Both the position numbers and the translations under genes were made by a program. Under the pieces are notes generated by a model. It ran no database searches. It was not told the DNA's origin and saw nothing but the letters and a program-made list of their open reading frames with translations. Source: a virus. Taken from it: 15,496 bases of DNA. Position 1 is the stretch's first letter. Every line of letters begins with the position of its first letter. The stretch lies in the IMG/VR virus record IMGVR_UViG_2619619053_000002, positions 1 through 15,496 of that record. One strand, given 5' to 3'. Positions 1-15,496 of the stretch are shown piece after piece.

Positions 1-90
1 GCTCCGCCCCCCGCAAATCCCAACGGCGCCGGACGGCGCCATCATCTCAGGAAGGACGCTACTGGCGGATGGGCGGGCGGCGCGAAGCGA
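1..90. repeat. Terminal direct repeat, left copy (identical to 15407-15496)
   Basis: Base-by-base comparison: gctccgccccccgcaaatcccaacggcgccggacggcgccatcatctcaggaaggacgctactggcggatgggcgggcggcgcgaagcga occurs at both ends. Confidence 0.95.
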
Positions 91-131
91 GCCGAAGGGC
101 GACACCGCCAACGGACAGAAGCGCCCGGGCA

Positions 132-159
132 TTTGCAGTTTCTAAAGGTTTGTGATAGT
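132..159 (+). promoter_or_regulatory. Candidate sigma70-type promoter for the long + strand array
   Basis: TTTGCA (132-137), a 16-nt spacer, then TGtGATAGT (151-159, extended -10 like). It sits in the first AT-richer island after the GC-rich repeats. The match is only moderate. Confidence 0.25.
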
Positions 160-174
160 TTGGTGGCATGCCTG

Positions 175-196
175 AGTATTGTCCTAAGTATTGTCC
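175..196. repeat. Two direct copies of AGTATTGTCC, 12-bp period
   Basis: AGTATTGTCC at 175-184 and 187-196, just downstream of the candidate promoter. Confidence 0.8.
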
Positions 197-309
197 CTGG
201 TGTCGTGAGGTAGTGATTCGTGGCGTTGGCTGGTGCTACGAGTGTCAGGTCTGTATCTGGTGTTGCGCTGAATGCCCCGAGAATGAGCAGTCTGTTAAGT
301 GGTGGGTGG

Positions 310-639
310 ATGATGCCAATCAGTCCTGAGAGGCGCAAGCTGTATCCGCGCAACTGGAAAGAGATCAGCTTGCGCGTTCGGCGTGAAGCTGGCTTTCGCT
401 GTCAGTGGTGTGATGCTGGCCTGGGCGAAGCTCATCCTGTGACGGGAAGCAAGGTGGTCTTGAGTGTACACCATCTCAATCATCTGCCAGAGGATTGTCG
501 TCGTGCCAACTTGGTGGCGCTGTGTCAACGGTGTCACTTGAAAGAGGACATGCGAGCGCACGTGATCAATCGGCGTGTGAATGCTGCTCGTCGTGAGCGT
601 GAAGCAGGTGAGGCGGCTGGTCAGATGCTATTGCTGTAG
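310..639 (+). CDS. HNH (His-Me finger) endonuclease, packaging-associated
   Basis: CQWC ... VHHLNH ... N ... CQRCH zinc-finger HNH pattern. Tandem ATGs at 310/313 are preceded by GGTGGGTGG. The gene lies directly upstream of the terminase genes. Upstream in-frame starts (GTG 220, ATG 283) cannot be excluded. Confidence 0.85.
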   Translation: MMPISPERRKLYPRNWKEISLRVRREAGFRCQWCDAGLGEAHPVTGSKVVLSVHHLNHLPEDCRRANLVALCQRCHLKEDMRAHVINRRVNAARREREAGEAAGQMLLL

Positions 640-722
640 ATGGCAGTAGGGCGTTGTTGCTAGAATGTTGGTTTTTTGAGCTTGCGCGATGGGCTGGCCC
701 CTCGTAAAATCTGGGGGAAAAT

Positions 723-1004
723 TTGCAAAAACCGGAAACATGGGATGATTTTGAGGCGCTTGCGCAAGATTTTACTAAATTAGAAGCGGCTTTGCGGGTG
801 CGTTTAGTAGAGATCGCGTTTGGGAACGGCGGCTCGGCGCAATGCCGGGCGATAGAGACCTTAATCGGCATGCCAGCGGTAGCGGGTGACGATGACATTG
901 CAGAAGGCGAACATGACGGTCTTGAATCACTGGCCCTCAGATATTTACAGTCGCGCGGATTTGTTGTCTCGCGCCCTGCGGACATCAGCGCGGACAAGTC
1001 TTAA
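723..1004 (+). CDS. Hypothetical protein in the small-terminase position (93 aa)
   Basis: TTG start preceded by GGGGGA (713-718). It lies immediately upstream of, and overlaps, the large terminase ORF. The assignment is positional only; I recognise no motif. Confidence 0.45.
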   Translation: MQKPETWDDFEALAQDFTKLEAALRVRLVEIAFGNGGSAQCRAIETLIGMPAVAGDDDIAEGEHDGLESLALRYLQSRGFVVSRPADISADKS

Positions 1005-2316
1005 GTCCTTCGTTCTGTACACAATGCCTGAATATGATTTGCAGCCGCATCATGACTTGATGATGTCTGCGATACAGCAAGAAATTGAGCGCCCTGACGG
1101 GCGCTTATATATTGGCATGCCGCCGCGCCATGGAAAGAGCGAAACCGGCACGATTCGGACCATCGCCTGGCATATTGGGTGCTGGCCTTGGAAGCAGGTC
1201 GTATTGTTGTGCTACGGCAGCGAGCTGGCGGCGGAATTCAGTCGGCGGATCCGGGCTATGGTGCGTGATGATCGTCTGTATCGTCATGTCTTCCCGCATG
1301 TAGGTCTCGATCCTGAGCGGGCGAAATTGCTTGATTGGAAGACGACGGCGGGCGGTGGTCTCAAGTCTCTTGGCGTCCAGGGCGGCATCACCGGACACGG
1401 CGCGGATTTCATGGTGATAGATGACCCGCATAAAGAGGGCGACGCGGAAAGTCTGACGACGCTCGACCAGATTTACGATTGGTATGTAACGGCGGCGAGA
1501 ACAAGGTTAAGTCCAGGGGCGTCGATCGTCTTTATTATGACGCGCTGGCATATGCTGGATTTGGCGGGGCGGCTGTTGGATGCAAAAGATAGCGACCAGT
1601 GGCGGCAAATTGTCTTGCCGGCGCTGGCGGAAGATGGGGATCTGCTTGGACGCGAGCCGGGACAAGCATTGTGGCCAGGTCGGTTTGATCGCGCGAATTT
1701 ATTGGCGATAAAAGCGCTGAACGATCGGTATTTTCAGGCCTTGTATCAGAATAATCCGCGCGGCGCGGATGATTTGATGTTCGATGTCTCTCGTGTGGAG
1801 TGGATTGACGCGGAGCCAGGCGAGTCGGCGTTCTGGACCTGCGATCTGGCGACGTCACGGCTGGAAACGGCGGATTATACAGTGTTGGCGCGGTGGAAGT
1901 ATGACAAGGATCGTTTATTTTTGCTGCAGAATTATCGGGAGCGGGAAACATTCGCGGCGGTGCGGCGGCGTCTTTTGGAGATTTCTGAGAAATATCCGGA
2001 TGATAAGATTGTCTTCCCCAAAGAGGTCTTGGAACTCTTAATGCTGAAGGATTTAGGTCGCGAAGTTGGCGCGGGGCGGCTTAAGGAAGTGAGCATGAAG
2101 GGCGACAAGGTGCAGAAGGCGATACCGGTCTCGACCCTTGTCGCGAACGATCGCTTTGTGGCGACGCCAAGTAAAGAGAATGATTATTTTGTGAGCGAGT
2201 TAGGCTTGTTTCCCCAGGGTCGCTTTGATGACTGTGTGGACGCGGCGGCAGTGGCGGCGCATTGGGTGGGCGTACCACGCGAATTTGAATTCTTTATGGG
2301 TGGGGGGGCGTCGTGA
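913..2316 (+). CDS. terL: Terminase large subunit
   Basis: Walker A-like GMPPRHGKSE, Walker B-like FMVIDDPH, and C-terminal nuclease-like acidic motifs (WTCDLATS, DDCVDAAAVAAHW). The start is ambiguous: GTG 886, ATG 892, or ATG 913 (GAAGG 5 nt upstream). Confidence 0.9.
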   Translation: MTVLNHWPSDIYSRADLLSRALRTSARTSLKSFVLYTMPEYDLQPHHDLMMSAIQQEIERPDGRLYIGMPPRHGKSETGTIRTIAWHIGCWPWKQVVLLCYGSELAAEFSRRIRAMVRDDRLYRHVFPHVGLDPERAKLLDWKTTAGGGLKSLGVQGGITGHGADFMVIDDPHKEGDAESLTTLDQIYDWYVTAARTRLSPGASIVFIMTRWHMLDLAGRLLDAKDSDQWRQIVLPALAEDGDLLGREPGQALWPGRFDRANLLAIKALNDRYFQALYQNNPRGADDLMFDVSRVEWIDAEPGESAFWTCDLATSRLETADYTVLARWKYDKDRLFLLQNYRERETFAAVRRRLLEISEKYPDDKIVFPKEVLELLMLKDLGREVGAGRLKEVSMKGDKVQKAIPVSTLVANDRFVATPSKENDYFVSELGLFPQGRFDDCVDAAAVAAHWVGVPREFEFFMGGGAS

Positions 2317-2516
2317 GTGATAAGTGGTTTCCTGATTGGTGGGGGCAGGAAGATCCGCGGAGTAAGCCGGTAGAGGTCGATAAATTTGAGTTAGTGGTAG
2401 CGCAGGTGGAATTTCTGCGGCAGGAGTTGGCGACGCTCATACGGGTTACGTCAGATATGAAATCGGAGCTGAGTCGCTTGCGGGAGGATTTAGAGGATCG
2501 CAATGGGAGTGATTGA
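2313..2516 (+). CDS. Small coiled-coil protein (67 aa) between terminase and portal
   Basis: GTG start in a GTGA overlap with the terL stop, with a G7 run upstream as RBS. It has a heptad-like charged C-terminus (LRQELATL...LSRLREDLE). Its position and size match lambda gpW, but I see no sequence resemblance. Confidence 0.6.
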   Translation: MSDKWFPDWWGQEDPRSKPVEVDKFELVVAQVEFLRQELATLIRVTSDMKSELSRLREDLEDRNGSD

Positions 2517-3708
2517 TCGGTTCCGGGCGCTTTTTCGCGCTGGCGGCGAGCGCACCGTAGAAAGCGGCAGCGGTCGTCGGGTAGCAGACATTCATGACGC
2601 GCCGGAGTGGATGTGGGTCGCGAATCCTGATTTCACGGATTATCTGGCGACCTATGCGTATCGAGAGTGGTTTTCCACGGCGATCGATCGCGTCGCTGAG
2701 ATGTGCGTCTCGGTACCGATGGTCGTGCGCGAATCTGAAGGCTTTGGTCTGCGCCCGGAGCATCCGCTGTTGGGATTGCTAGGGACTTACGGCCAGGCGA
2801 ATCGCCATCAGGATAGCTTTGAGTTTTTGGAGTCGCATTTCCGCCGTATGGACATATTCGGCAATGATGTCTGGTATTGGGTGTCGCGGGGTGGCGGCGC
2901 TCCTGACGAAGTATATCAGCTCGATTTGCGGACGCTGACGATACGGGTCATCGATGGCGAGCAGTGGTATATCTATAATGTCGGCGGTGTTGAGTATCGG
3001 ATATCGCCTGAGCAAGTGACGCATTTCAAGCGGGCGAATGTGGTGGCCAGCGGCGCGTTTTGGGGTCTGTCCGCGATAGACAAGCTGCGGAATGTGGCGA
3101 ATACGGATCGGTATATGACCAAGTTTCAGCAGGAATTCTTTCGGACGGGTGCGCCAAGCGGCATTATCATCGTCGATGCGGGTGAGGTGGATAGCAAGCA
3201 AGCCAAGTTAATCGAGACGGAATTCCACGAAAGCGCGGATGCCGGTCGGCGGTTGGCGGTCATACGCGCAAATGCTGGCAGCGCGGTTTGGAATGAGGCG
3301 GGCGCAAAGCAGCGCGATATGGATTTTGAGAAGGGGCGGCTGCTGACTCGTCAAGCGGCCTTCGATGCTTTGGGATTTCATGTCGGGGCGGTCTCTGAAG
3401 CGTCGACAGAAGCGCATGCGCGGGTGGCGGAAGCGTTGGTACGGGAAAGCGCCTGGACTCGGCACCGGCGTACGGCAAGCGCCTTGAATACGGTATTGCA
3501 GTTTTGGCCGGCGTCGCGGGGTCTGCGCGTAGATTTTGAGGATGTCCGGGCGACGGATTGGGAACGGGAGTCGAAGAAGCTGCAAGCTGTCAGTCCGTTC
3601 ATGACCATAAATGAGGTTCGTTCGTCGTATCTCGGTCTTGGTCCTATAGCCGGCGGGGATGTCTTCGCTCGCCAGGGGGTGCGTAATGTCACAGACTCTG
3701 TGCGCTAG
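2503..3708 (+). CDS. Portal protein (HK97/SPP1-like family)
   Basis: 401 aa, directly after terL. Contains portal-like stretches (EHPLLGLL, FGNDVWYW, ISPEQVTHFK). Order and size are typical for a portal. Confidence 0.8.
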   Translation: MGVIDRFRALFRAGGERTVESGSGRRVADIHDAPEWMWVANPDFTDYLATYAYREWFSTAIDRVAEMCVSVPMVVRESEGFGLRPEHPLLGLLGTYGQANRHQDSFEFLESHFRRMDIFGNDVWYWVSRGGGAPDEVYQLDLRTLTIRVIDGEQWYIYNVGGVEYRISPEQVTHFKRANVVASGAFWGLSAIDKLRNVANTDRYMTKFQQEFFRTGAPSGIIIVDAGEVDSKQAKLIETEFHESADAGRRLAVIRANAGSAVWNEAGAKQRDMDFEKGRLLTRQAAFDALGFHVGAVSEASTEAHARVAEALVRESAWTRHRRTASALNTVLQFWPASRGLRVDFEDVRATDWERESKKLQAVSPFMTINEVRSSYLGLGPIAGGDVFARQGVRNVTDSVR

Positions 3709-3937
3709 ATGCAGGTTGCGAATTGTTCTTGAGGCGGATTGCGCATGGTCTCGTTTATCTATGGATCAGCGCAAGTATTTGGAGACAAACGGCGTCAGTC
3801 CTTCGAAGTATTGCGGTTATCGAGCGGTAGAGTATGAGCGCTGGTCGGAAGAGCAGGGTTTGGGCGACGGGATTAAAGGGTTTGGGCGATGGGATTCATC
3901 GGAATCGGTTTCATGTTTGTATGGTCTTGATTCATAG
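3686..3937 (+). CDS. Hypothetical small Cys-containing protein (83 aa)
   Basis: ATG 3686 is preceded by GGGGG and overlaps the portal stop. Has CxxC plus two more Cys. Coding status is uncertain because a 19-bp direct repeat with a 22-bp, non-codon period lies inside it. Confidence 0.4.
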   Translation: MSQTLCARCRLRIVLEADCAWSRLSMDQRKYLETNGVSPSKYCGYRAVEYERWSEEQGLGDGIKGFGRWDSSESVSCLYGLDS

Positions 3938-4090: not shown

Positions 4091-4107
4091 TGTGGGGGGC
4101 TAGAGCA

Positions 4108-6198
4108 ATGTCAATAATTACACGGACGGGTGATTTCGTTGAAGGCACTCTCGTTCCGTTCGCCGGGCCGGATGATGACGGCTTTGGGACCTGGTGGGAC
4201 GCGGATACTGATTTCGCCTTGGATCTGTACGCCCCGCATGCGTTGTTGTATTTGCACGGCGTGAAAGATCTCAAGCAGCACGGGCGTTTGCGAGATTTCG
4301 GGATTGAAGCTGATGGGCTGCATGTGCGCGGACAAATCACGCGCCGCGACAGTCCGATTTATGCGCTTGTCGACAGTGGACAAGCGGCATGGAGCAGTGG
4401 CAGCATGGCTGGCGTGGCGTCACCGGCGCGGATGGATGGCTATATCGCGCGTTGGCCAATTGTTGAAGGCAGCATCGCCCATCATCGCGTCGTGGTAGCG
4501 CGGCATGGTCTGACGAAGGCGGATTATGTTCGCGCGGGCGTTGGTGTGCGCGGGGGCGGTCAGTATTTACGAAGTGTTTGGACGGGAGCGAGTTTCATGG
4601 AGACAGCACAACAGGAAGGGCAGCAGGAAGCGCAGCATGAAGGGCAGCAGGAAGCGCAGCATGAAGGGCAGCAGGAAGCGCAGCAGGGCCAGCAGCAGGA
4701 AGCGCAGCAAGCGCAGCAGCAGGGCGCGCAAGGCGGCGCGACGGATGAAATGGCGGAGTTCCGCGCGTGGCAGGCGGAACGGGACAAAGAGAAGCGCAAA
4801 GAGGAAATGCGCGCCATGCTGGAAGAATTAGGCATAGTGCCGGAAGGCGAGAAGCCGGCGCGGGCGCTTCCGAAGGAAGGCGCGAAATCGCCAGTTAATC
4901 AGCAGGACCCGGTGATTCGCGTCGCGAGTCCATATGACCAGGTGTCGTTGCTGGGCATGGCGATGCACTATGAGGGCAAGGCGGCGTTTCGCAGCAGAAG
5001 CAATGATACGATGGCGGAATTTGACGACAAGTATTTTCGGGCGCTGGCCTACAAGGTTGAGGATCAGTGGAAGAAGGACAAAGAGGTTGAGCAAGAGTGG
5101 ATACCGACGTCGCAAGGGTTTCTCGAAGTGATTCCGATGCGAGCGATCGATTATCAGACGTACCGGAATTGGAATAATGCCATACCGAATTTGCGGGCGG
5201 ATGAAGCGATGATGTCGACGCTGGCGAATAAAGGGGATGAACTTGTTCCGACCTTGCTCTCGTCGTCTTTGTATTACTTCATGCGCCTGGAATCGATGGT
5301 CGCGCCATTGTTCCGAACTTTCAGGATGCCTAGCCAGCCCTTTGATTATCCGAAGATTACCAGCGGGCCGACCTTCGTGCGCGGGGCCGAGTTGCAGGAT
5401 TCCACGAATTTCAATATAGCAAATTCGAATATCGATTACTCGCAAATTGGCACGGACAAGGTGACGTTCACGGCGGGCAAGCTGTCGGCGATTACGTTGT
5501 ACAGTGAGGAATTGGTAGAGGATTCGACCGTTGCCTGGGCGGAGGCCGCGGCGCGGGTTTACGTGGAAGAGATGGCGCATGCCTTCGATTTCGTTATTCT
5601 GAATGGCGATATGGACGCGAACGCCACCAATATCAGTTTCTATGGCACGAATCCGAATTCTGCGATTGAGACTAAGCGGATTTTGACCTTTGACGGCATC
5701 CGTAAGAAGATTGCGGCCGCTGATCAAGTTGCCGTCGCCGACATCGCGGACGATTCTATCTTGGGCGTGATGGCGACGATGGGCAATCGCGGCATTATTG
5801 GTCGGGATATTGGTAATTTGGTCTGCATCGGTCCACCAGAGGTGGGTTACAAGCTGGACGCGCTGGATGCCTATGAAGGATTGGACAAGGTCGGCTCGCA
5901 AGCAACCTTGTTGAGCGGTCAGTTGGGCTTCTGGCGTTCGGTCCCTGTAATCATCACTGAGGAATTTCCGCAGACGGACGCCAATGGGCGCGTAGATGAT
6001 ACAGCGTCGGAGAATAGCAAGGGCGCCTGGGTGGTAGCGAATCGCAATGCCATCATGATTGGTATGCGACGTATGCCCATGATCGAGCAAGGGCGTCAGC
6101 CCGGCGTTGATGGTCGTTTCATCACGGCGTCGCTGCGAGCGGACGTGAATTTGATGGAGCCAGGCGCGGCGGCAATGGGCTACAACTCGACAGTTTAG
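4108..6198 (+). CDS. Fused prohead protease - Q/E-rich scaffold - HK97-fold major capsid protein (696 aa)
   Basis: The N-terminal ~160 aa resembles S78/HK97-type prohead protease (LLYLHG ... DGLHVRGQI ... WSSGS, His-Ser spacing about 47 aa). The middle is a QQEAQ repeat and charged coiled-coil (EMAEFRAWQAERDKEKRKEEMRAMLEEL). The C-terminus is HK97 MCP-like (FTAGKLSAITLYSEELVEDS ... FDFVILNGD). ATG 4108 has a G-rich RBS; the upstream extension to 3994 is rejected. Confidence 0.85.
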   Translation: MSIITRTGDFVEGTLVPFAGPDDDGFGTWWDADTDFALDLYAPHALLYLHGVKDLKQHGRLRDFGIEADGLHVRGQITRRDSPIYALVDSGQAAWSSGSMAGVASPARMDGYIARWPIVEGSIAHHRVVVARHGLTKADYVRAGVGVRGGGQYLRSVWTGASFMETAQQEGQQEAQHEGQQEAQHEGQQEAQQGQQQEAQQAQQQGAQGGATDEMAEFRAWQAERDKEKRKEEMRAMLEELGIVPEGEKPARALPKEGAKSPVNQQDPVIRVASPYDQVSLLGMAMHYEGKAAFRSRSNDTMAEFDDKYFRALAYKVEDQWKKDKEVEQEWIPTSQGFLEVIPMRAIDYQTYRNWNNAIPNLRADEAMMSTLANKGDELVPTLLSSSLYYFMRLESMVAPLFRTFRMPSQPFDYPKITSGPTFVRGAELQDSTNFNIANSNIDYSQIGTDKVTFTAGKLSAITLYSEELVEDSTVAWAEAAARVYVEEMAHAFDFVILNGDMDANATNISFYGTNPNSAIETKRILTFDGIRKKIAAADQVAVADIADDSILGVMATMGNRGIIGRDIGNLVCIGPPEVGYKLDALDAYEGLDKVGSQATLLSGQLGFWRSVPVIITEEFPQTDANGRVDDTASENSKGAWVVANRNAIMIGMRRMPMIEQGRQPGVDGRFITASLRADVNLMEPGAAAMGYNSTV
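4615..4686 (+). repeat. 24-bp in-frame tandem repeat x3 (GAAGGGCAGCAGGAAGCGCAGCAT), degenerating into CAG/GCG-rich sequence up to about 4735
   Basis: Units at 4615-4638, 4639-4662 and 4663-4686 (last base differs). They encode (E)GQQEAQH repeats. Confidence 0.9.
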
Positions 6199-6261: not shown

Positions 6262-6810
6262 ATGGCATATCCCACGCTGACTGAGATAAAAGCGCGTCTT
6301 GCCATCACCGGCACGGCGCAAGACGATCTTCTGCAGCATTCCCTGAATGTGGCGCGGGGGGCTGTGGAGTCGTATTGCGGTTATCGCTGGGGCCTGGTAG
6401 ACAGTGAGGCGCGCTTGTTTCAGCGTTCGTATTATAGCGGCCGGAAGTCCGTCTTTGACGTCTCTGATCCGGGCTTGTTGAGTTACACGGATTTAACGGT
6501 CAGCAGGGGCGGCACTGAGCGAACACCGAGGGATGACGACGTGTTGCTGGTGCGGTACAGCAGGACAGGGACGGGCCCCTGGGACTTGTTTCGCGTGAAT
6601 GGCGATTGGGATGAAGTATCCATAAGGGGTATCTGGGGACAGGGGACGGAGCCACCGTCAGAGGTAGCAGAGGCGGTCATGATCGTCGCGATGGGCGTGT
6701 TCACGGAAGGTTATCGCGTGGGGTCTGGCGGTGAAGCGTCTGATGCTACGTTGGACATCGGGAGCGGTCTGGTCGGATTTTTGTTGAGCGGTCATAGGAG
6801 GGCGCGGTGA
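6262..6810 (+). CDS. gp6-like head-tail connector/adaptor protein
   Basis: The N-terminus MAYPTLTEIKARLAITGTAQDDLLQHSLNVARGAVESYCG has the typical opening of gp6-like head-tail connector proteins. It is the first gene after the capsid gene. Confidence 0.75.
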   Translation: MAYPTLTEIKARLAITGTAQDDLLQHSLNVARGAVESYCGYRWGLVDSEARLFQRSYYSGRKSVFDVSDPGLLSYTDLTVSRGGTERTPRDDDVLLVRYSRTGTGPWDLFRVNGDWDEVSIRGIWGQGTEPPSEVAEAVMIVAMGVFTEGYRVGSGGEASDATLDIGSGLVGFLLSGHRRAR

Positions 6811-8755: not shown

Positions 8756-8757
8756 CT

Positions 8758-9273
8758 ATGGCATGGGAAAGTCCCAAGACCTGGGTAGACACTGAAGACA
8801 GACTGAACGCGGCGAATTTGAATCGTTACGTGCGCGACAACCAGATTGCGCTTCGAGCGGACGCGGCGGCGCTGAGTCAGCGCGTGGGGACGCTTGAGGT
8901 GGGCGGGTTCAGCGACGCCATGCTGCGGGATGTAAATTTCGGCACTTCATCGCGCGGTCAGCAAGTGTTGACGAATTTGACACCGCCGGCAAATACCAAA
9001 CTTATTTATATCGGGGTGCGGATAGAGAATTTTTCGTCTTGGACGGCGGTGCCTTTAATAGATTACGCGATTTGGAAAATGTTCCCGGAGTACGAGGCCG
9101 GAGTGACTGTACCGGCGGCGGAGCGCTGGCCGTTTCGAGCGCAGGGTTATCTTGAGCAGCATGTTGTAGGCGGGTATGTATTCAAGGGCACGGGCGGCGT
9201 TTTGGGCCTGTGGGGCGGCTCTGCCAGTCGTGACGAGCGGTATGATCAGATTTGCGTTAGGTGGTATACGTGA
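8758..9273 (+). CDS. Hypothetical tail fibre/needle-like protein (171 aa)
   Basis: The N-terminal W..TEDRLNAANLNRYVRDNQIAL motif is of the kind seen at the N-termini of phage tail-fibre proteins, and is followed by a short coiled-coil-like stretch. Confidence 0.65.
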   Translation: MAWESPKTWVDTEDRLNAANLNRYVRDNQIALRADAAALSQRVGTLEVGGFSDAMLRDVNFGTSSRGQQVLTNLTPPANTKLIYIGVRIENFSSWTAVPLIDYAIWKMFPEYEAGVTVPAAERWPFRAQGYLEQHVVGGYVFKGTGGVLGLWGGSASRDERYDQICVRWYT

Positions 9274-11291: not shown

Positions 11292-11300
11292 TTGTTTTTT

Positions 11301-11309
11301 TGTTATAAT
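11301..11309 (+). promoter_or_regulatory. Extended -10 promoter-like element (TGTTATAAT) ahead of the lysis cassette
   Basis: Perfect TATAAT (11304-11309) with TG at -15/-14, in the 54-bp AT-rich gap after the fibre gene. No good -35 element. Confidence 0.4.
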
Positions 11310-11345
11310 TGCAGCATCGATTGGCAAATTTTATGGAGGTTCATT

Positions 11346-11483
11346 ATGTTGGCTGGTTTGATAGCGGCTGCCATTGCCGCGCTCATCAATCACGCGCATG
11401 ATCAAGAGGGCGTCGAGGGCGCGAAGGCCGCGGCGCAAGCCATTCGCGATACGCTGGATGGTCATCCGCATTTGCAAGACTGA
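11346..11483 (+). CDS. Small membrane-anchored protein (45 aa)
   Basis: GGAGG (11335-11339) lies 6 nt before the ATG. N-terminal hydrophobic helix MLAGLIAAAIAALI followed by a charged tail. Confidence 0.6.
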   Translation: MLAGLIAAAIAALINHAHDQEGVEGAKAAAQAIRDTLDGHPHLQD

Positions 11484-11489
11484 GATACC

Positions 11490-11512
11490 GGGGCGCTTCG
11501 GCGCCCCCTTTG
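11490..11512 (+). terminator. GC hairpin with TTCG tetraloop and weak U-tract (attenuator or RNA-stability element)
   Basis: ggggcgc / ttcg / gcgcccc followed by ctttgg. It lies between the 45-aa ORF and the holin-like ORF. Confidence 0.45.
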
Positions 11513-11527
11513 GTGAAGGGACATAGC

Positions 11528-11734
11528 ATGACTGGAATCGGCAAGTTGGTTCATATGCGGTCGTTTTGGACGGCTGTATTCACTCTGGCGGGTATCGTGC
11601 TGCATGAGGTCTTTGGATCTGACGTCATCAATGAGCAGACTCAGGGCGTGTTTGTGGCTACGATTCTCGCGCTTATCGGTGGCGGGGCGGCGAGCGACGC
11701 TGTTGAGACGCACAGGGGGCATGATGGCGCGTAA
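11528..11734 (+). CDS. Holin-like protein, two predicted TM segments (68 aa, pinholin-sized)
   Basis: GAAGGG RBS. Hydrophobic segments SFWTAVFTLAGIVLHEVF and GVFVATILALIGGGAA. Two in-frame Met (M1, M10) with K/R between them. It sits upstream of the endolysin. Confidence 0.6.
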   Translation: MTGIGKLVHMRSFWTAVFTLAGIVLHEVFGSDVINEQTQGVFVATILALIGGGAASDAVETHRGHDGA

Positions 11735-11912
11735 AAGCAAGGCGCAGACGCGGCTGGAAGCGCTGGACGGCTTGCGCTCGCAGTTCGCGGTATTCAAGAA
11801 TATCGTGATGGATGCCCAGCATCCTGATCATGCCAAGGTGTCGGCGCTGGTTGACGCGCTGCCCGAGTACATTGAGTCGGCGCTGGCCGGCAAGGATGGC
11901 GACGATGGCTAA
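11724..11912 (+). CDS. Hypothetical soluble protein (62 aa) nested between holin and endolysin
   Basis: ATGATG at 11721/11724 after AGGGGG. It overlaps the holin stop, and its own stop overlaps the endolysin start (ATGGCTAA). Confidence 0.5.
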   Translation: MARKSKAQTRLEALDGLRSQFAVFKNIVMDAQHPDHAKVSALVDALPEYIESALAGKDGDDG

Positions 11913-12423
11913 GCGCGGCAGATTGATAGCGGTTGCGTTGGCGCTGTTGTTCGCGGCAAGCAGTGTATGGGCGCATGACGCGCTGACGATCGACCAGTTG
12001 TGCGAGTTGGCGCTAGAGCATGGCAGCGGGCTGCCACCGGACTTGGTGGTAGCGCAGATTCAGGAAGAATCGGGCGGGCAGCCGGATATTGTGTCCAGCG
12101 CGGGCGCGGTAGGTCTTCTCCAGGTGGTGCAGAAGTATCATCCTGACGTGGATTTGAAGGACCCGGGTATCAATATCGAAGTAGGCACGCACGTTCTGAT
12201 ACAGGATACTTTCTACCTGAGCCACATTCGCGCGGGCTGGTCGTCTCCAGATGACATTGACTGGCTGAATATGGAGTATCTACGGCGGGGTCTCGCGGGC
12301 TATGTGATGGGTCCCGGCAATGTGACCTGGTACGACAAGCATCCTGAGAAGCAGTGGCCGGAGAACGTAGTAAGGTATGCGGACATTATCGAGAACTTGT
12401 ATGGGGAGCGGCTCTGTGCCTAA
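11905..12423 (+). CDS. Secreted or SAR-type lytic transglycosylase endolysin (SLT domain)
   Basis: N-terminal MAKRGRLIAVALALLFAASSVWA signal/anchor. SLT catalytic signature QIQEESGGQP ... AGAVGLLQV. Confidence 0.85.
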   Translation: MAKRGRLIAVALALLFAASSVWAHDALTIDQLCELALEHGSGLPPDLVVAQIQEESGGQPDIVSSAGAVGLLQVVQKYHPDVDLKDPGINIEVGTHVLIQDTFYLSHIRAGWSSPDDIDWLNMEYLRRGLAGYVMGPGNVTWYDKHPEKQWPENVVRYADIIENLYGERLCA

Positions 12424-12634
12424 AGACGTTCGGCAGTTAGAGGTGGATCGAGAGAAGATTCGGATACAGTTGGTCGCGCTCTTGGCGTTGGGGGTGTCGC
12501 GGTGCGACCAAATGCAGCTCGAGGTCAAGGGAGCCAATTTGATAGCGACATTTCGAGGGCTTGACGCTGATTTTCTTGAGAAGGTCGAGCAGGGCGCGGA
12601 AAGCGGGTTTGATAGTCTTTCCGACAACGTGTAG
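12416..12634 (+). CDS. Hypothetical protein (72 aa)
   Basis: GTG 12416 overlaps the endolysin stop (ATG 12401 is an alternative). No motif recognised. Confidence 0.45.
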   Translation: MPKDVRQLEVDREKIRIQLVALLALGVSRCDQMQLEVKGANLIATFRGLDADFLEKVEQGAESGFDSLSDNV

Positions 12635-12711
12635 GAATTTATGGATAATTCGCGAAATTCGAGGTTTTTCGGCGTGATTTCGTAGTACAAAGTGTATGAA
12701 GGGGGTGGCTC

Positions 12712-12939
12712 GTGATTGAGCAGATGATTGAGTTGTTGCCACCAGAATACAGAGATGAGGCGCGGTGTCTATTCGAGGATGTGCGGAATGACGATGAGCA
12801 TCCTGCAGAGTTCCTTCGGAAAGTAGACGATTTCTTTAAGAGATTGTGCGCTGCCGAAGGACAGGATTATGAGGCGATTTTCGGCGGCGTGCGCGGCAAG
12901 ATGCGCCATATGATAGCGCAGGGTGTTGATCATGACTGA
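12712..12939 (+). CDS. Hypothetical highly acidic protein (75 aa)
   Basis: GTG preceded by GAAGGGGGTGG. 18 D/E against 10 K/R residues. Confidence 0.6.
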   Translation: MIEQMIELLPPEYRDEARCLFEDVRNDDEHPAEFLRKVDDFFKRLCAAEGQDYEAIFGGVRGKMRHMIAQGVDHD

Positions 12940-13132
12940 ATTGGAATTTGGGCTGCTGTCCTGGTCGTTTCCGGTTATGGATACCTGCATCGGCGCCGTG
13001 AAGGAAAAATGTGAAGAATACGATCTCAAGTTCGATGTGCGGAACACCGGCGGCCAGCTGCTCTTTGAAGTGACGGGGGCCACGACAGCGCAATTGGTGG
13101 AGTTACAGGGTTTGTCCGGTCATTTGGATTGA
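12932..13132 (+). CDS. Hypothetical protein (66 aa)
   Basis: ATG 12932 overlaps the upstream stop (ATGACTGA). It is the last gene of the + array, directly before the terminator. Confidence 0.55.
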   Translation: MTELEFGLLSWSFPVMDTCIGAVKEKCEEYDLKFDVRNTGGQLLFEVTGATTAQLVELQGLSGHLD

Positions 13133-13163
13133 CGGGCGCGCTCGTGCGCCGCAGAAGTAAAGG

Positions 13164-13186
13164 CAGCCCCGAAAGGGGCTGTTTTT
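13164..13186 (+). terminator. Rho-independent terminator between convergent genes
   Basis: cagcccc / gaaa / ggggctg followed by TTTTT. It sits in the 56-bp gap between the + gene stop (13132) and the minus gene stop (13189). The reverse orientation has a weaker T-rich tail. Confidence 0.85.
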
Positions 13187-13188
13187 AT

Positions 13189-13455
13189 TTACTCTGCGCC
13201 TATCTGGGATAGGTTCGCGGGGTCTTGTGGCGTCGCTTCGTAGTTCGATTGGAGCGCGTCGACTGCGGAACACAAGCGCACAAAGTCTTCGTAGTGTTTC
13301 CATTTTTGGGACTCGTTAAAGCGGGCGTAGCGGTTGAATGCGGGCCATACGATGGCGGTCATCGTCTGTCGCAGAACGACTTCTGGTAGAGGCGCACCGG
13401 TGTCGGCGAGCGCGCGGGCCTGCTGGACTTTTTTACTTAGGACTTGGTCGGTCAT
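13189..13455 (-). CDS. Hypothetical protein (88 aa)
   Basis: ATG at 13455 (complement), with GGAGA 8 nt upstream. The longer ORF start at 13518 lacks an RBS. Confidence 0.6.
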   Translation of the reverse strand: MTDQVLSKKVQQARALADTGAPLPEVVLRQTMTAIVWPAFNRYARFNESQKWKHYEDFVRLCSAVDALQSNYEATPQDPANLSQIGAE

Positions 13456-13547
13456 ATTAATTTCTCCGTATGTTGAACTGTACGCCGCTGTGGTGGGCGA
13501 TACTGTACAGTGTAGCACAATGGCGAGCAGGGGTCAAATTATGCCTG

Positions 13548-14270
13548 TTATGGGGGTTTTGCCGGCGGGATCCGGAATCCTGGGGGTTTAGGCAGCTTGA
13601 AAAAGTCGTGGATGGGGTGTCTTTCGGGTTTGGGCTTCACACTATCCCGCAAGGTGCTGTTTTTGCGGTTTGGCAGGGCGCGATACCATGCCAGCCACTG
13701 CACGCCTGGGAATGCGGCCAGCTGGTAGACGTGGCACCATTTGTCGTACTGGCGGCCGCGCCATACAAAGCAGCCGCGCCAGTCGAAGCTTACGCGTTCG
13801 ATCACTCCGGCCTCTCTGAGGCGTCCGACCCAGACGTTGGTCTGCTCGCGCGACAGCCCGGCGGCCCGTCCGATGTTTTCCTGCTTGGCGCTACAGTAGC
13901 CGTTGACGTACATGTACAGCAGTATCGCGCCCAGGACCCGCCCGGCGGTTGGATGCCAGTCTTCGTCGCTGTGGTTGCGCAGTATGTAGTTAGCGGCGTG
14001 GAAGGCTTCGGCGCGGCGCTGTTTGACGATCTGCTCCGTCCGGCGACGGATGTATTTGGCTTCTTTGGCGGATTTGGCGGCGGCGTGGATGTCGCGCAGG
14101 TTGTCGGCAGTGGAGTATCGATGCGGAATCAGCGCGTAGTATGTCCAGGCTGCGATGAATGGATTGCGGTTGCCTTCGACGTATTTTTCCCGGCGCATTG
14201 GCTTGTCGAGCAGCACACGAAAGTCGAGTTTCTCTAAAGGTGTTGATATTGCTTGCTTAGACGGCGTCAA
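13548..14270 (-). CDS. Winged-HTH DNA-binding protein, candidate replication initiator or early regulator (240 aa)
   Basis: wHTH-like segment SAKQENIGRAAGLSREQTNVWVGRLREAGVIERV. TTG start at 14270 with AGGA 7 nt upstream (ATG at 14198 is an alternative). It is the only obvious DNA-binding gene in the genome. Confidence 0.7.
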   Translation of the reverse strand: MTPSKQAISTPLEKLDFRVLLDKPMRREKYVEGNRNPFIAAWTYYALIPHRYSTADNLRDIHAAAKSAKEAKYIRRRTEQIVKQRRAEAFHAANYILRNHSDEDWHPTAGRVLGAILLYMYVNGYCSAKQENIGRAAGLSREQTNVWVGRLREAGVIERVSFDWRGCFVWRGRQYDKWCHVYQLAAFPGVQWLAWYRALPNRKNSTLRDSVKPKPERHPIHDFFKLPKPPGFRIPPAKPP

Positions 14271-14318
14271 CGTGTTATCCTAAAGTGTGAATTTGTGCTG
14301 GTCGAGCTGAATTCGCCG

Positions 14319-14352
14319 AACCGCCGAGCTTGCTCGGCGGTTTGTGCTTTTT
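14319..14352 (+). terminator. Orphan + strand intrinsic-terminator-like hairpin, antisense to the leader of the wHTH gene
   Basis: aaccgccgagc / gctcggcggtt (11-bp arms, minimal loop) followed by tgtgcttttt. No + strand gene lies upstream of it. Confidence 0.5.
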
Positions 14353-14555
14353 CTGTAGTGTATTTATTAAGACTTAAGACGCAAGTGGATTTGGCAGCGA
14401 ATCTTTATTCGCCTTAGAAAATATGTTCTAGGGTGGGGTACGTAGGGCAAAAAAAATGCAGTGAGCTTGTGAACCCGGATTCTCTGGGCGAGCAAGGTTT
14501 TCTGGTAGCCAACTCGCCCGCTCGCAGAAAGCGCAACAACGGAGCGTTTTTGAGA

Positions 14556-14644
14556 ACGGACGAGTTGTCGGCGGGCAAGTCTTACCTGTTCGCGGAAAAT
14601 GGATTCGGTCGCAGACCTTTCGTATCCGCCGACAACTCGTCCGT
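14556..14644. repeat. 19-bp perfect inverted repeat with a 51-nt spacer
   Basis: acggacgagttgtcggcgg (14556-14574) and ccgccgacaactcgtccgt (14626-14644). Confidence 0.9.
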
Positions 14645-14811
14645 CTATCTTCTCTCTCTCTCAACCGTACGCTTCCGGGCGTCGGGATAGCGCGGGCGCG
14701 CCGACAAGCGAAGCGCGAAGGCGCGCATAGGCGGCGGCGGGGCAGGGCGCGGGGAATGACGGGCGCGGCGTTTTTCAGCCGCGCGACCACAGCGCGCCCC
14801 CCGCGCCCAGA

Positions 14812-14945
14812 GGGAAGGCGAAAAACCGGGGGGTCTGCCGGCGGTTGCGAATCGAGTTTTCGCGCTGTTTGCGAAACGAGATGCGCGATCCGCCGGACGG
14901 GGCGCGGTGGCGCCCCGCCCCCCGCCTGGTGTTTTTCGCCTTCCC
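14812..14945. repeat. Long imperfect GC-rich palindrome with nested hairpins
   Basis: The outer arms gggaaggcgaaaaa (14812-14825) and tttttcgccttccc (14932-14945) are perfect over 14 bp. Inner pairs are G6 (14828-14833)/C6 (14918-14923) and ccggcgg (14838-14844)/ccgccgg (14890-14896). A side hairpin cggggcgc-ggtg-gcgccccg lies at 14898-14917. Confidence 0.8.
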
Positions 14946-14947
14946 GT

Positions 14948-15236
14948 CCCCGCCGCCGCCTTTCCGCGCGGGCTGGAGTATGACGGGTCTGCTGGCTCTG
15001 TCTCAGTGGCGGGCTTGAGGGCAGCAGGTTTGCGAGTGGTGTTGCGGGTATAAGCTGGGTTGGCTGTGTCGTAGTGGCTGGCTTGCTATCGCTCCCCGCC
15101 GCCGCCTAAGCGTTGGCTGAAGTATGACGGGTTTGCTGGCTCTGTCTCAGTGGCGGGCTTAAGGGCAGCAGGTTTGCGAGTGGTGTTGCCGGTACAAGCT
15201 GGGTTGGCTGTGTCGGAGTGGTTGGCTTGCTATCGC
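14948..15236. repeat. Two tandem copies of a ~144-bp unit containing four 24-bp iteron-like motifs
   Basis: 14971-15092 against 15115-15236 gives 7 mismatches in 122 nt. The motif TGGCTsTGTCnnAGTGGnkGGCTT occurs at 14993-15016, 15061-15084, 15137-15160 and 15205-15228. Confidence 0.9.
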
Positions 15237-15295
15237 GCGTAGCGCGGCCCGGGCGCGACAGTCCGTTGGCGGTTGCGCCGCCCTGCCGCAGAGCA

Positions 15296-15373
15296 GGCGT
15301 TTCTCGTCCGCCCCCCGCAAATCCCAACGATGCTAGGAAGGACGCTACTGGCGGATGGGCGGCGAGAAACGCC
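15296..15373. repeat. Stem-enclosed module R1, a paralogue of the module in the terminal repeat
   Basis: An 11-bp inverted repeat, ggcgtttctcg (15296-15306) / cgagaaacgcc (15363-15373), encloses ccgccccccgcaaatcccaacg ... aggaaggacgctactggcggatgggcgg. Confidence 0.85.
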
Positions 15374-15401
15374 AAACGAGGACGCGGCAGGCGAGCCAGA
15401 A

Positions 15402-15489
15402 GCGCCGCTCCGCCCCCCGCAAATCCCAACGGCGCCGGACGGCGCCATCATCTCAGGAAGGACGCTACTGGCGGATGGGCGGGCGGCGC
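15402..15489. repeat. Stem-enclosed module R2 (also at 4-77 via the terminal repeat)
   Basis: Same core as R1 (15410-15431 and 15455-15482), but atgct is replaced by a 23-nt insert containing the palindrome ggcgcc-ggac-ggcgcc. The module is enclosed by gcgccgc (15402-15408) / gcggcgc (15483-15489). Confidence 0.8.
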
Positions 15490-15496
15490 GAAGCGA
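15407..15496. repeat. Terminal direct repeat, right copy (identical to 1-90)
   Basis: Same 90-mer as 1-90. Confidence 0.95.

What the first reader, a model, noticed from the sequence alone, without database searches (positions are those of the whole stretch)
1..15496. The window is a whole ~15.4-kb phage-like replicon with almost no replication or lysogeny genes
Seen: an exact 90-bp repeat at both ends gives a 15406-bp unit. Within it I find a full packaging/head/tail/lysis gene set and only two other genes, an 88-aa unknown and a 240-aa wHTH protein. I do not see a DNA polymerase, primase, helicase, integrase or obvious repressor. About 9 percent of the genome is one repeat-dense non-coding block. 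Established: tailed phages this small are rare, and most of the smallest carry a protein-primed polymerase. Inference: this is a minimal podovirus-like virus, phage-plasmid or satellite-like element that depends on host replication.
Basis: partly seen in the sequence, partly recalled or inferred. Interest (0 to 1): 0.75.

Follow-up and report, generated by a model that had tools for sequence, protein, structure and literature searches.

The report
Complete 15.4-kb mini tailed phage genome
The window is the whole genome of a very small tailed phage of sponge-associated Chloroflexi; it carries all the genes to build, fill and release a virus particle but only one candidate replication or regulatory protein, so it probably relies on its host to copy its DNA.

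Summary
Bases 1-90 equal 15407-15496 exactly, giving a 15,406-bp unit. An independent JGI assembly of the identical sequence (L007) starts 28 bp earlier and reads through the junction. Thirteen related protein clusters exist. Two relatives also close at about 15 kb (15,077 and 15,425 bp).

The genome encodes an HNH nuclease, a TerS candidate, TerL, portal, a 696-aa scaffold plus HK97-capsid fusion, adaptor, four tail proteins without a tape measure, holin-like ORFs and an SLT lysin. It also holds several tiny ORFs and a leftward pair, wHTH240 and orf88. I found no polymerase, primase, helicase, integrase or partition gene.

wHTH240 belongs to a rare phage family whose winged helix weakly matches replication-initiator (O-like) profiles. 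In relatives its slot holds other initiator-like wHTH proteins or a PrimPol-VapE primase-helicase.

The 1.45-kb non-coding block (9.4%) contains four iteron-like repeats. It also holds a conserved, covarying, strand-specific structured element of about 160 nt and unknown function.

One relative is a precise 14,991-bp insertion in a sponge Chloroflexi chromosome and has no integrase.

The satellite reading is rejected and the phage-plasmid reading is unsupported. The architecture resembles the known small-genome actinophages, so I file it as a new lineage of a known kind.

The parts
1..90 (.). Terminal overlap, identical to 15407-15496. It closes a 15,406-bp circle or concatemer junction.
   Evidence: L007 reads through the junction.
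220..639 (+). HNH endonuclease, a packaging accessory. The homology starts near residue 36.
   Evidence: PHROG 1571, E = 2e-19. Conserved in 7 relatives.
723..1004 (+). orf93, a small-terminase candidate. It overlaps the start of TerL.
   Evidence: No profile hit. tblastn finds it at 39-47% identity just upstream of TerL in 7 relatives. The function is inferred from position.
913..2316 (+). Large terminase (TerL).
   Evidence: PHROG 38, E = 3e-84. 37% identity to Acetobacter phage phiAO1 terminase.
2313..2516 (+). orf67, unknown. It is not conserved in relatives.
2503..3708 (+). Portal protein.
   Evidence: Pfam Phage_portal, E = 9e-24.
3686..3937 (+). orf83, unknown small protein between the portal and capsid genes.
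   Evidence: JGI call on L007. Weak similarity in L010 and L011.
4108..6198 (+). 696-aa fusion protein: a conserved N-terminal 170-aa domain (protease candidate), a Q/E/A-rich scaffold-like repeat, and an HK97-fold major capsid protein.
   Evidence: Phage_capsid and PHROG 10. PDB capsid hits with the profile. The N-terminal domain has no profile hit. The 12-nt tandem repeat lies at 4581-4730.
6262..6810 (+). Head-tail adaptor (gp6-like).
   Evidence: Pfam Phage_connect_1 and PHROG 442.
6807..7247 (+). orf146, a conserved virion or tail protein of unknown fold.
   Evidence: Conserved in all relatives. No hits.
7244..8755 (+). orf503, a family-specific tail protein. Its N-terminal ~100 aa resemble the gp27 / Mu gp44 baseplate-hub fold.
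   Evidence: 13 related protein clusters besides its own. Foldseek against PDB, E = 4e-4 to 1e-2 and probability 1.0, on a low-confidence model with pLDDT 51.
8758..9273 (+). orf171, a conserved tail protein.
   Evidence: Conserved in all relatives. No profile hits.
9270..11291 (+). 673-aa tail fibre or receptor-binding candidate.
   Evidence: Only part of it is conserved among relatives and its length varies from 416 to 684 aa. This pattern is typical of receptor-binding proteins; the assignment is an inference.
11292..11734 (+). Two small hydrophobic ORFs (11292-11483 and 11510-11734), holin candidates.
   Evidence: Hydrophobic stretches visible in the translations. orf74 is conserved in L002 and L011.
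11905..12423 (+). SLT-domain lytic transglycosylase (endolysin).
   Evidence: Pfam SLT, E = 3e-9; PHROG 669.
12401..13132 (+). Three small ORFs of unknown function (77, 75 and 66 aa).
   Evidence: no hits.
13164..13181 (.). GC-rich hairpin between the converging gene sets, a terminator candidate.
13189..13455 (-). orf88, unknown. It lies downstream of wHTH240 on the same strand.
   Evidence: 34% identity to a leftward ORF in L010.
13548..14270 (-). wHTH240, a winged-helix DNA-binding protein. It is the candidate replication initiator and/or early regulator.
   Evidence: 21 relatives among 1.84 billion representatives. HTH_36 matches 15 of 19 members. PHROG 'replication initiation / O-like' hits for it and its homologues. 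AlphaFold2 pLDDT 81. Only generic wHTH fold matches.
14350..14449 (.). AT-rich minimum (40% GC) upstream of wHTH240. It contains the conserved palindrome TAGAAAATATGTTCTA.
14456..14614 (+). Conserved ~160-nt rod-like structured element (RNA or single-stranded DNA), plus-strand specific.
   Evidence: 73-79% nucleotide identity to relatives. 46 pairs with 91% of cells paired against 30-45% in slid controls; 17 pairs with compensatory changes; 0 of 500 shuffles reach this. Covariance model: 151 bits on the + strand against 31 bits on the - strand. No Rfam family.
14556..14644 (.). Perfect 19-bp inverted repeat private to this genome (14556-14574 and 14626-14644). It competes with the conserved fold.
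14721..14969 (.). GC-rich block (66-76% GC) of nested inverted repeats.
   Evidence: (fold z-score -4.45).
14947..15236 (+). 144-bp tandem duplication holding four copies of TGGCTNTGTC at 14993, 15061, 15137 and 15205. These are iteron candidates.
   Evidence: 4 exact copies, all here; 9 matches at up to 1 mismatch against 2.7 expected.
15296..15489 (.). Two hairpin modules (15296-15373 and 15402-15489), each made of a 23-nt and a 28-nt repeat. The two independent contigs break here. This is the candidate packaging (cos) region.
   Evidence: The function is an inference.

Best explanation
The window is the complete genome of a miniature tailed phage (HK97-fold capsid, probably short-tailed) that infects sponge-associated Chloroflexota.

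Inside the cell the DNA is a 15,406-bp circle or concatemer. One long rightward operon makes the packaging enzymes (HNH, TerS candidate, TerL), portal, a scaffold-capsid fusion, adaptor, a four-protein tail and the lysis proteins. A short leftward operon makes wHTH240 and orf88.

Replication is done by the host replisome. The most likely route is that wHTH240 binds the four direct repeats in the 1.45-kb non-coding block and opens or marks an origin there, as lambda O or plasmid Rep proteins do, while probably also regulating its own promoter. The same non-coding block holds the packaging site just upstream of HNH-TerS-TerL. There TerL with the HNH protein cuts unit-length genomes (cos type).

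Shown: completeness, gene content, absence of recognisable replication or integration enzymes, and host phylum of the lineage. Inferred: the initiator role of wHTH240, the position of the origin and cos site, and the short tail.
For: Closure:
- Exact 90-bp overlap.
- L007 is identical, starts 28 bp earlier and spans the junction.
- Relative L006 is a long-read concatemer with a 15,077-bp period. L013 has a 93-bp overlap, a 15,425-bp unit, and is broken inside the portal gene, so it is permuted relative to the window.
- P0001's longest contig is 15,533 bp, which equals 15,406 + 127.

Gene set:
-.
- The structural module is conserved at 35-85% identity in all relatives.

No replication or integration enzyme:
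-.

wHTH240:
- It is a real gene, with 21 homologues and a confident fold.
- HTH_36 matches 15 of 19 members.
- It and its homologues hit PHROG 'replication initiation / O-like' families at E = 1e-7 to 3e-4.
- In relatives, the slot next to the non-coding block and the packaging genes holds one of the following: a wHTH240 homologue (L011, L013); an unrelated 129-130-aa HTH_36 protein hitting initiator, O-like and DnaD-like PHROGs at E = 1e-12 (L002, L010); an unknown 304-aa protein (L006); or a PrimPol-VapE primase-helicase (L012).
- This non-orthologous replacement happens while the packaging proteins stay conserved.

Repeats beside these genes:
- Window: 4 x TGGCTNTGTC.
- L013: 4 x 13 nt. 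L010: 3 x 21 nt.

Host:
- A 58%-identical relative is inserted in a Chloroflexi MAG from the sponge Aplysina aerophoba (PMC5649159).
- Empty sites exist in related Chloroflexi genomes.
- GC is 57% here against 59% for the MAG.

Packaging:
- The HNH protein gp74 stimulates cos cleavage by TerL in HK97 (PMC9410871).
Against: - The initiator assignment rests only on the wHTH domain. Structure searches give generic wHTH regulators at E > 0.1 in PDB, and mostly unnamed HTH proteins in BFVD.
- The profile comparison of wHTH240 with the L002 HTH_36 protein is weak (E = 0.005, probability 7%).
- The closest homologue (L037) sits directly upstream of a TerL on the same strand, which is the usual TerS position.
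- The four repeats are about 70 bp apart, wider than classic iterons.
- No DnaA box lies in the non-coding block.
- The L010 repeats are internally palindromic and could be operators.
- The conserved structured element is unexplained by this model.
- Tail type is inferred from absence. The orf503 model is poor (pLDDT 51).
- No reads were available, so the physical ends and topology are untested.
Confidence: 0.6

Rival explanations
1. The genome is the same complete mini-phage, but wHTH240 is a transcription regulator (repressor or late-gene activator) and not an initiator. The phage then encodes no replication protein at all. Initiation would depend on host factors acting on the non-coding block, for example a transcript or single-strand initiation signal formed by the conserved ~160-nt structured element.
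For: - Structure and PDB sequence searches return only regulators: MntR, CRP/Vfr and MarR types.
- The gene is divergent from the late operon, next to an AT-rich region with a conserved palindrome, TAGAAnnTATGTTCTA.
- The L010 repeats are palindromic, like operators.
- The integrated relative keeps a 130-aa wHTH protein in this slot, as a prophage repressor would be kept.
- The structured element is conserved whatever early protein is present.
Against: - Consistent hits to initiator and O-like PHROG families across homologues.
- In L012 a true primase-helicase replaces it in the same slot.
- The window's repeats are direct, not inverted.
- The structured element is absent from L011 and L012, which are near-complete genomes.
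Confidence: 0.25
2. It is a temperate phage caught as an excised or replicating circle. It integrates into the host chromosome through a recombinase supplied by the host or by another element.
For: - Relative L002/L015 is a precise 14,991-bp insertion with intact genes between two conserved Chloroflexi genes. CCTCG lies at both junctions, and empty sites exist in three related genomes.
- That relative also lacks any integrase.
- The window-type circle (L007) and the integrated relative (L004) occur in the same sample, 3300027391.
Against: - All four contigs carrying the window's own orf503 are at most 15.5 kb and show no host flank.
- The window has only about 57 bp between its converging operons, where L002 has a 170-bp repeat-rich att-like region. 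Nothing similar to the L002 ends is found in the window.
Confidence: 0.15
3. It is a phage-plasmid: a prophage kept as a low-copy plasmid by a Rep-iteron replicon.
For: A circular unit, a candidate initiator with direct repeats, and no integrase.
Against: - No ParA/ParB, toxin-antitoxin or resolvase genes.
- wHTH240 has no tblastn match in 72,556 plasmid records.
- No plasmid Rep Pfam family matches.
Confidence: 0.08
4. It is a satellite or an assembly artefact: a chimeric contig or a falsely closed prophage fragment.
For: Small size. The overlap length of 90 is not a usual assembler k-mer size.
Against: - A full structural and lysis gene set is present.
- Two independent assemblies give the same 15,406-bp circle.
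- Relatives from other studies and from long reads close at 15.08-15.43 kb with the same gene order.
Confidence: 0.02

Closest known systems
Small-genome actinobacteriophages: Microbacterium Cluster EE (17.0-17.5 kb), Arthrobacter Clusters AN/AX/FE, Gordonia CW/DM, Rhodococcus phage RRH1 (14.2 kb)
   Same: - Genome of about 14-17.5 kb, almost entirely virion, packaging and lysis genes.
- A single gene fuses scaffold and HK97 capsid; in those phages the protease is fused too.
- An HNH nuclease and a few DNA-binding proteins.
- No polymerase, integrase or repressor (PMC7302621).
   Different: - No detectable sequence similarity: the capsid fusion finds nothing in 50,697 phage records and the whole-genome megablast finds nothing.
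- Those phages are siphoviruses with a tape measure; none is found here.
- The host phylum is Chloroflexota, not Actinobacteria.
- The protease domain of the fusion was not confirmed.
- This lineage has a 1.45-kb structured non-coding block and an integrated relative.
Protein-primed small podoviruses (Salasmaviridae / phi29-like, Rountreeviridae, Mycoplasma phage P1); named from my own knowledge
   Same: Similar genome size, a probable short tail, and a structured ~160-170-nt nucleic-acid element next to the packaging genes. phi29 has a pRNA.
   Different: - No family-B polymerase or terminal protein.
- Packaging is by a classical TerL with an HNH partner.
- The Rfam searches returned no match to any family, phage packaging RNA included if Rfam holds one.
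- The genome closes as a circle or concatemer rather than having protein-capped ends.
HK97-type cos packaging module (HNH gp74 + TerS + TerL)
   Same: An HNH endonuclease is encoded next to TerS and TerL. In HK97 the HNH protein stimulates cos cleavage by TerL (PMC9410871).
   Different: The cos site and end structure are not determined here. In relatives the HNH gene sits in either orientation.
Lambda O / iteron-type origins and phage 'replication initiation O-like' wHTH proteins
   Same: A wHTH protein hits these PHROG families. Direct repeats and an AT-rich stretch lie nearby.
   Different: - No P/DnaC-like loader or helicase.
- The repeats lie outside the gene and about 70 bp apart.
- The similarity is limited to the wHTH domain.

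Membership tests
Tailed phage (Caudoviricetes) complete genome | Large terminase, portal and HK97-fold major capsid protein | tested here: met
   PHROG 38, E = 3e-84; Phage_portal, E = 9e-24; Phage_capsid and PDB capsid hits.
Tailed phage (Caudoviricetes) complete genome | Genome closure (ends overlap; independent confirmation) | tested here: met
   90-bp exact overlap. L007 spans the junction. Relatives close at 15.08 and 15.43 kb. Physical termini could not be tested without reads.
Small-genome phages with protease-scaffold-capsid fusion (actinophage Clusters EE/AN, RRH1 type) | Genome of about 14-17.5 kb with few non-structural genes and no integrase or repressor | tested here: met
   15,406 bp. 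No such genes in Pfam, PHROGs or NCBIfam. Definition taken from PMC7302621.
Small-genome phages with protease-scaffold-capsid fusion (actinophage Clusters EE/AN, RRH1 type) | Single gene fusing maturation protease, scaffold and capsid | tested here: inconclusive
   The 696-aa gene has a Q/E/A-rich repeat and a C-terminal HK97 capsid. The N-terminal 170 aa are strongly conserved, with invariant His50 and Ser96/Ser97, but match no protease profile or structure.
Small-genome phages with protease-scaffold-capsid fusion (actinophage Clusters EE/AN, RRH1 type) | Siphovirus tail with tape measure; sequence relatedness to those clusters | tested here: not met
   No tape measure or tube hit. The tail module is only four proteins. 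No BLAST match of the genome or the capsid fusion in the phage collection.
phi29-like / protein-primed small podoviruses | Family-B DNA polymerase and terminal protein | tested here: not met
   No hit in any library.
Phage-plasmid | Plasmid-type replication initiator plus partition or stability genes | tested here: not met
   No Par, toxin-antitoxin or resolvase genes. wHTH240 has no match in PLSDB. A Rep role for wHTH240 stays possible but is not plasmid-like by sequence.
Phage satellite (P4, PICI, PLE type) | Lacks its own capsid, tail and packaging genes; usually has an integrase | tested here: not met
   A full structural set is present and there is no integrase.
Iteron-type origin with wHTH initiator (lambda O-like) | Initiator with a wHTH domain related to O, Rep or DnaD families | tested here: inconclusive
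   PHROG 270, E = 3e-4 for the window protein and 1e-7 to 2.5e-5 for the best hit of each homologue. HTH_36 in 15 of 19 members. Fold searches are generic.
Iteron-type origin with wHTH initiator (lambda O-like) | Array of direct repeats next to an AT-rich region; DnaA boxes | tested here: inconclusive
   Four TGGCTNTGTC repeats. An AT-rich 14350-14449. No DnaA box within 1 mismatch in the block.
Gene transfer agent | Chromosome-only cluster with no free replicating or self-packaged genome | tested here: not met
   Free circular units were assembled repeatedly, and the genome carries lysis and packaging-recognition genes.

The most novel reading that the evidence does not exclude
This lineage may be a tailed phage that runs replication, and in some members chromosomal integration, with no polymerase, primase, helicase or recombinase of its own. 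On this reading the conserved, covarying ~160-nt plus-strand element (window 14456-14614) is the key cis- or trans-acting part: a primer or single-strand initiation signal for the host replisome, or an RNA regulator that takes the place of a repressor. The precise 14,991-bp insertion of a relative would then be made by a host-supplied recombinase acting on the GGCTGACCACCC repeats. That would define a new class of phage non-coding element and an integrase-free route to lysogeny in Chloroflexota.
Probability: 0.15. Interest if true: 0.8.

Novelty: new member of a known kind. Interest (0 to 1): 0.55.

Why it matters
- Very few phages of Chloroflexota are known, and these bacteria are dominant sponge symbionts.
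- The genome sets a useful lower bound for a terminase-packaging tailed phage: about 20 genes, one candidate replication protein and roughly 9% regulatory DNA.
- It shows that the scaffold-capsid-fusion, HNH, few-early-genes design, known from small actinophages, arose or spread outside Actinobacteria.
- Two side results are directly testable. The first is a conserved structured element with strong covariation and no Rfam family. The second is a relative that integrates precisely without any recognisable recombinase.

Tried and rejected
- Whole-genome megablast and capsid-fusion tblastn against 50,697 phage records gave no match.
- The word-index protein search with wHTH240 gave nothing. Only the exhaustive HMMER search found the family.
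- wHTH240 against the plasmid collection gave no match.
- Foldseek of wHTH240 against PDB and BFVD gave only generic wHTH hits.
- Profile and PDB searches for a protease in the N-terminal domain of the capsid fusion found nothing.
- PDB searches with orf146, orf171 and orf676 found nothing, and NCBIfam found nothing for the ten unknown ORFs.
- The orf503 structure model was poor (pLDDT 51). Only its N-terminal hub-like domain gave consistent matches.
- Rfam found no family in either mode, and there are no tRNAs.
- The pattern scan of IMG/VR for the structured element gave 19 hits. None of them matched the profile built from the element, so they are chance matches.
- The stricter metagenome scan gave only L035 and the known host contig.
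- The Y1 (IS200-like) transposase genes in L011 and L012 were considered as integrases. I rejected this because they sit at different places, between TerL and portal in L012, as insertion sequences do.
- The 411-aa gene beside the integrated relative was considered as an integrase. I rejected this because it is a conserved Chloroflexi membrane-protein gene that is also present at the empty sites.
- No att repeat of 13 bp or more flanks the integrated relative. Its ends find nothing similar in the window or in other relatives.
- wHTH240 as small terminase was judged unlikely. orf93 holds the TerS position in every relative, whereas the wHTH slot is swapped for unrelated proteins while TerL stays conserved.

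Full report
**1. Observation**

The window has an exact 90-bp direct repeat at its two ends (1-90 = 15407-15496), giving a 15,406-bp unit. Closure does not rest on this contig alone. A 15,413-bp contig from JGI sample 3300027391 (L007) is 100% identical. It starts at unit position 15379 and reads through 15406 into 1 and on past 91. The longest contig carrying the identical orf503 protein is 15,533 bp, which is 15,406 + 127. That fits a k = 127 overlap, but I could not fetch that contig. GC content is 57%. GC skew is positive along the whole plus strand, matching a nearly one-directional gene layout. There are no tRNAs and no Rfam families.

**2. Gene content**

Profile searches identify the following on the plus strand:
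- an HNH endonuclease (220-639)
- TerL (913-2316)
- portal (2503-3708)
- a 696-aa protein ending in an HK97-fold capsid domain (4108-6198)
- a gp6-like adaptor (6262-6810)
- an SLT lytic transglycosylase (11905-12423)

A 93-aa ORF overlapping the TerL start (723-1004) has no profile hit. It is conserved at 39-47% identity in the same position in seven relatives, so I treat it as the small terminase candidate.

Four further proteins (orf146, orf503, orf171, orf676) follow the adaptor and are conserved in all relatives.
- The N-terminal ~100 residues of orf503 match the gp27 / Mu gp44 baseplate-hub fold, though on a low-confidence model.
- orf676 is only partly conserved and varies in length, like a receptor-binding fibre.
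- No tape measure or tail tube was found, and the module is too small for a long tail, so a short tail is likely. This is inferred and not shown.

Two small hydrophobic ORFs precede the lysin and are holin candidates.

The capsid protein carries a Q/E/A-rich 12-nt tandem repeat region (4581-4730). It also has a strongly conserved 170-aa N-terminal domain with invariant His50 and Ser96/97. That domain may be a maturation protease, but no protease profile or structure matched.

On the minus strand lie wHTH240 (13548-14270) and orf88 (13189-13455). The public JGI call puts a 255-aa plus-strand ORF over wHTH240. That ORF has no homologue, while the minus-strand protein has 21.

Nothing in Pfam, PHROGs or NCBIfam points to a polymerase, primase, helicase, integrase, transposase or partition protein.

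**3. The family and its host**

orf503 defines a small family of 14 protein clusters: its own plus 13 related clusters at 53-66% identity.
- Contigs cluster at about 15 kb.
- L006 is a 25.3-kb long-read concatemer with a 15,077-bp period.
- L013 has a 93-bp end overlap, giving a 15,425-bp unit. It is broken inside the portal gene, so it is permuted relative to the window.

This lineage therefore has a genome size of about 15 kb.

One member is integrated. It lies in 25-151-kb contigs from several JGI samples and in contig MPMG01000010 of 'Chloroflexi bacterium bin20'. That is a symbiont MAG from the sponge Aplysina aerophoba (PMC5649159).

Three related Chloroflexi genomes have the empty site... 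ABC transporter, a 200-aa SH3 protein, a 411-aa membrane protein, sigma-70 .... Alignment shows a precise 14,991-bp insertion (L002 1370-16360). CCTCG lies at both junctions, and three GGCTGACCACCC repeats lie at one element end.

The inserted copy has all structural genes intact and, like the window, has no integrase. The window-type genome itself was seen only as contigs of at most 15.5 kb without host flanks. It also lacks any counterpart of that att-like region.

**4. The candidate replication protein**

wHTH240 found nothing in the word-indexed search. It found 21 relatives among 1.84 billion representatives.
- The family has a conserved GNRNP motif and a winged helix.
- HTH_36 matches 15 of 19 members.
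- The window protein and its homologues hit PHROG 'replication initiation / O-like' families. E is 3e-4 for the window protein and 1e-7 to 2.5e-5 for the best hit of each homologue.
- The AlphaFold2 model is confident (pLDDT 81). Fold searches return only generic wHTH proteins.
- There is no match in plasmids.

The stronger argument is positional. The packaging and virion genes are conserved throughout the family, but the slot beside them varies:
- a wHTH240 homologue in L011 and L013
- an unrelated 129-130-aa HTH_36 protein in L002 and L010, which hits initiator, O-like and DnaD-like PHROGs at E = 1e-12
- an unknown 304-aa protein in L006
- a PrimPol-VapE primase-helicase in L012

This is the familiar swapping of replication modules.

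Direct repeats lie beside these genes:
- four TGGCTNTGTC copies in the window's 144-bp tandem duplication
- four 13-nt repeats in L013
- three 21-nt repeats in L010

Against the initiator model:
- The similarity is confined to the wHTH domain.
- The repeats are widely spaced.
- No DnaA box is present in the block.
- The closest homologue (L037, another small phage) sits directly upstream of a TerL.

I consider a TerS role unlikely here, because orf93 holds that position in every relative. A regulator role remains a serious rival.

**5. The non-coding block**

It spans 14271-15406 plus 1-309, which is 1,445 bp or 9.4% of the unit. Its parts, in order, are:
- an AT-rich stretch with a conserved palindrome (14350-14449)
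- a conserved structured element (14456-14614)
- a 66-76% GC set of nested inverted repeats (14721-14969)
- the 144-bp duplication (14947-15236)
- two hairpin modules, each built from a 23-nt and a 28-nt repeat (15296-15373 and 15402-15489)

Both independent assemblies break between these two modules, 28 bp apart and about 300 bp upstream of HNH-TerS-TerL. Cos sites usually lie in that position. In HK97 the HNH protein stimulates cos cleavage by TerL (PMC9410871). I therefore propose that the packaging site is here, but only read mapping can test it.

**6. The structured element**

Part of the block is 73-79% identical at the nucleotide level to relatives whose proteins are only 55-65% identical.

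Seven copies from six loci fold into one rod-like structure of 46 pairs.
- 91% of cells are paired, against 30-45% when partners are slid.
- 17 pairs show compensatory changes, against 1-6 in the slid controls.
- None of 500 shuffles reaches these values.
- Many G-U pairs, and a covariance-model score of 151 bits on the plus strand against 31 on the minus strand, show that it is strand-specific.

It is therefore an RNA or a single-stranded DNA structure.

The element occurs once in the window, L002, L006, L010 and L013, whatever early protein they carry. It occurs twice in L035 and is absent from L011 and L012. No Rfam family matches it. In the window, a private perfect 19-bp inverted repeat competes with the conserved fold. 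Its function is unknown. Possible roles are a leader or regulatory RNA, an RNA primer, or a single-strand initiation signal.

**7. Comparison with known systems**

The closest analogues in design are the small-genome actinobacteriophages: Cluster EE at 17.0-17.5 kb, Clusters AN/AX/FE and CW/DM, and RRH1 at 14.2 kb. They share a protease-scaffold-capsid fusion and an HNH nuclease. They also have a few DNA-binding proteins and no integrase, repressor or polymerase (PMC7302621).

This genome works like them but is not a member. There is no sequence similarity, no tape measure, and the host phylum is different.

It is also not a phi29-type phage, because it lacks a family-B polymerase and terminal protein. 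It is not a satellite, because the structural set is complete. It is not a recognisable phage-plasmid, because it has no partition genes and no plasmid-like Rep.

**8. Verdict**

The window is a complete genome of a new lineage of miniature tailed phages of sponge Chloroflexota, so I file it as a new member of a known kind.

Confidence that it is a complete mini-phage genome is high, about 0.9. Confidence that wHTH240 plus the repeats form the replication initiator and origin is moderate, about 0.5.

The most novel features are side results: the covarying structured element, and integrase-free precise integration in a relative.

Noticed in passing
window 14456-14614 (+); L010 2512-2662; L002 2089-2243; L006 10480-10637; L013 10037-10199; L035 444-603 and 3771-3933: A conserved ~160-nt rod-like structured element with strong covariation: 17 compensatory pairs, 91% of cells paired, and plus-strand specific. 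It has an invariant loop GAGCUUGUGA and no Rfam family. It is absent from relatives L011 and L012.
   Followed up: yes
window 14556-14574 / 14626-14644: A perfect 19-bp inverted repeat found only in this genome. Its left arm overlaps the 3' strand of the conserved element's main helix, so the two folds exclude each other, like a switch or attenuator.
   Followed up: partly
L002 1370-16360 (= L015, L004, L036); empty sites at L039, L040 and L041 near 9965-10001: A 58%-identical relative is a precise 14,991-bp insertion between two conserved Chloroflexi genes. CCTCG lies at both junctions and three GGCTGACCACCC repeats lie at one end. The element has no integrase or transposase gene.
   Followed up: yes
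window 1 and 15379 (start of L007): Two independent assemblies of the identical circle break within 28 bp of each other, between two hairpin modules upstream of HNH-TerS-TerL. This hints at physical genome ends (cos) or a sequencing-coverage gap there.
   Followed up: partly
window 13470-14237 (+) versus 13548-14270 (-): The public JGI gene call on the identical contig annotates a 255-aa plus-strand ORF over the wHTH gene. Only the minus-strand 240-aa protein has homologues and a confident fold, so the deposited annotation hides the only candidate replication gene.
   Followed up: yes
window 4581-4730: A 12-nt tandem repeat (about 8 copies) encodes a Q/E/A-rich stretch between the N-terminal domain and the capsid domain of the 696-aa fusion protein. 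Its length differs among relatives, whose fusion proteins are 681-701 aa.
   Followed up: partly
L011 14651-15049 (-); L012 14769-15149 (+): IS200-like Y1 transposase genes occur in two relatives at different sites. In L012 the gene lies between TerL and portal. These look like insertion sequences riding in 15-kb phage genomes. Both genomes lack the structured element.
   Followed up: partly
L002 2343-2899; L013 10502-10793: The non-coding blocks of relatives carry 3-8 copies of a GC-rich hairpin, GGCGGCGTTCTTTGCCGC. These resemble REP-like or protein-binding hairpins. The window has looser versions at 14767-14782 and 15296-15311.
   Followed up: no
L035 1-4132: A 4.1-kb metagenome contig has two direct copies of the structured element, 3.3 kb apart. 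They flank a leftward region with a short stretch (75 nt, 84% identical) similar to the L012 VapE-like primase-helicase gene. That region reads as two overlapping ORFs and may be frameshifted.
   Followed up: partly
L037 9955-12545: The closest homologue of wHTH240 (51% identity) lies in an unrelated 17.5-kb small-phage contig directly upstream of its TerL on the same strand. This is the usual small-terminase position and leaves a packaging role for this protein family open.
   Followed up: partly
window 171-196: A tandem CCTAAGTATTGT x2.2 lies in the AT-richer stretch just upstream of the HNH gene. It is a possible late-promoter or operator site.
   Followed up: no
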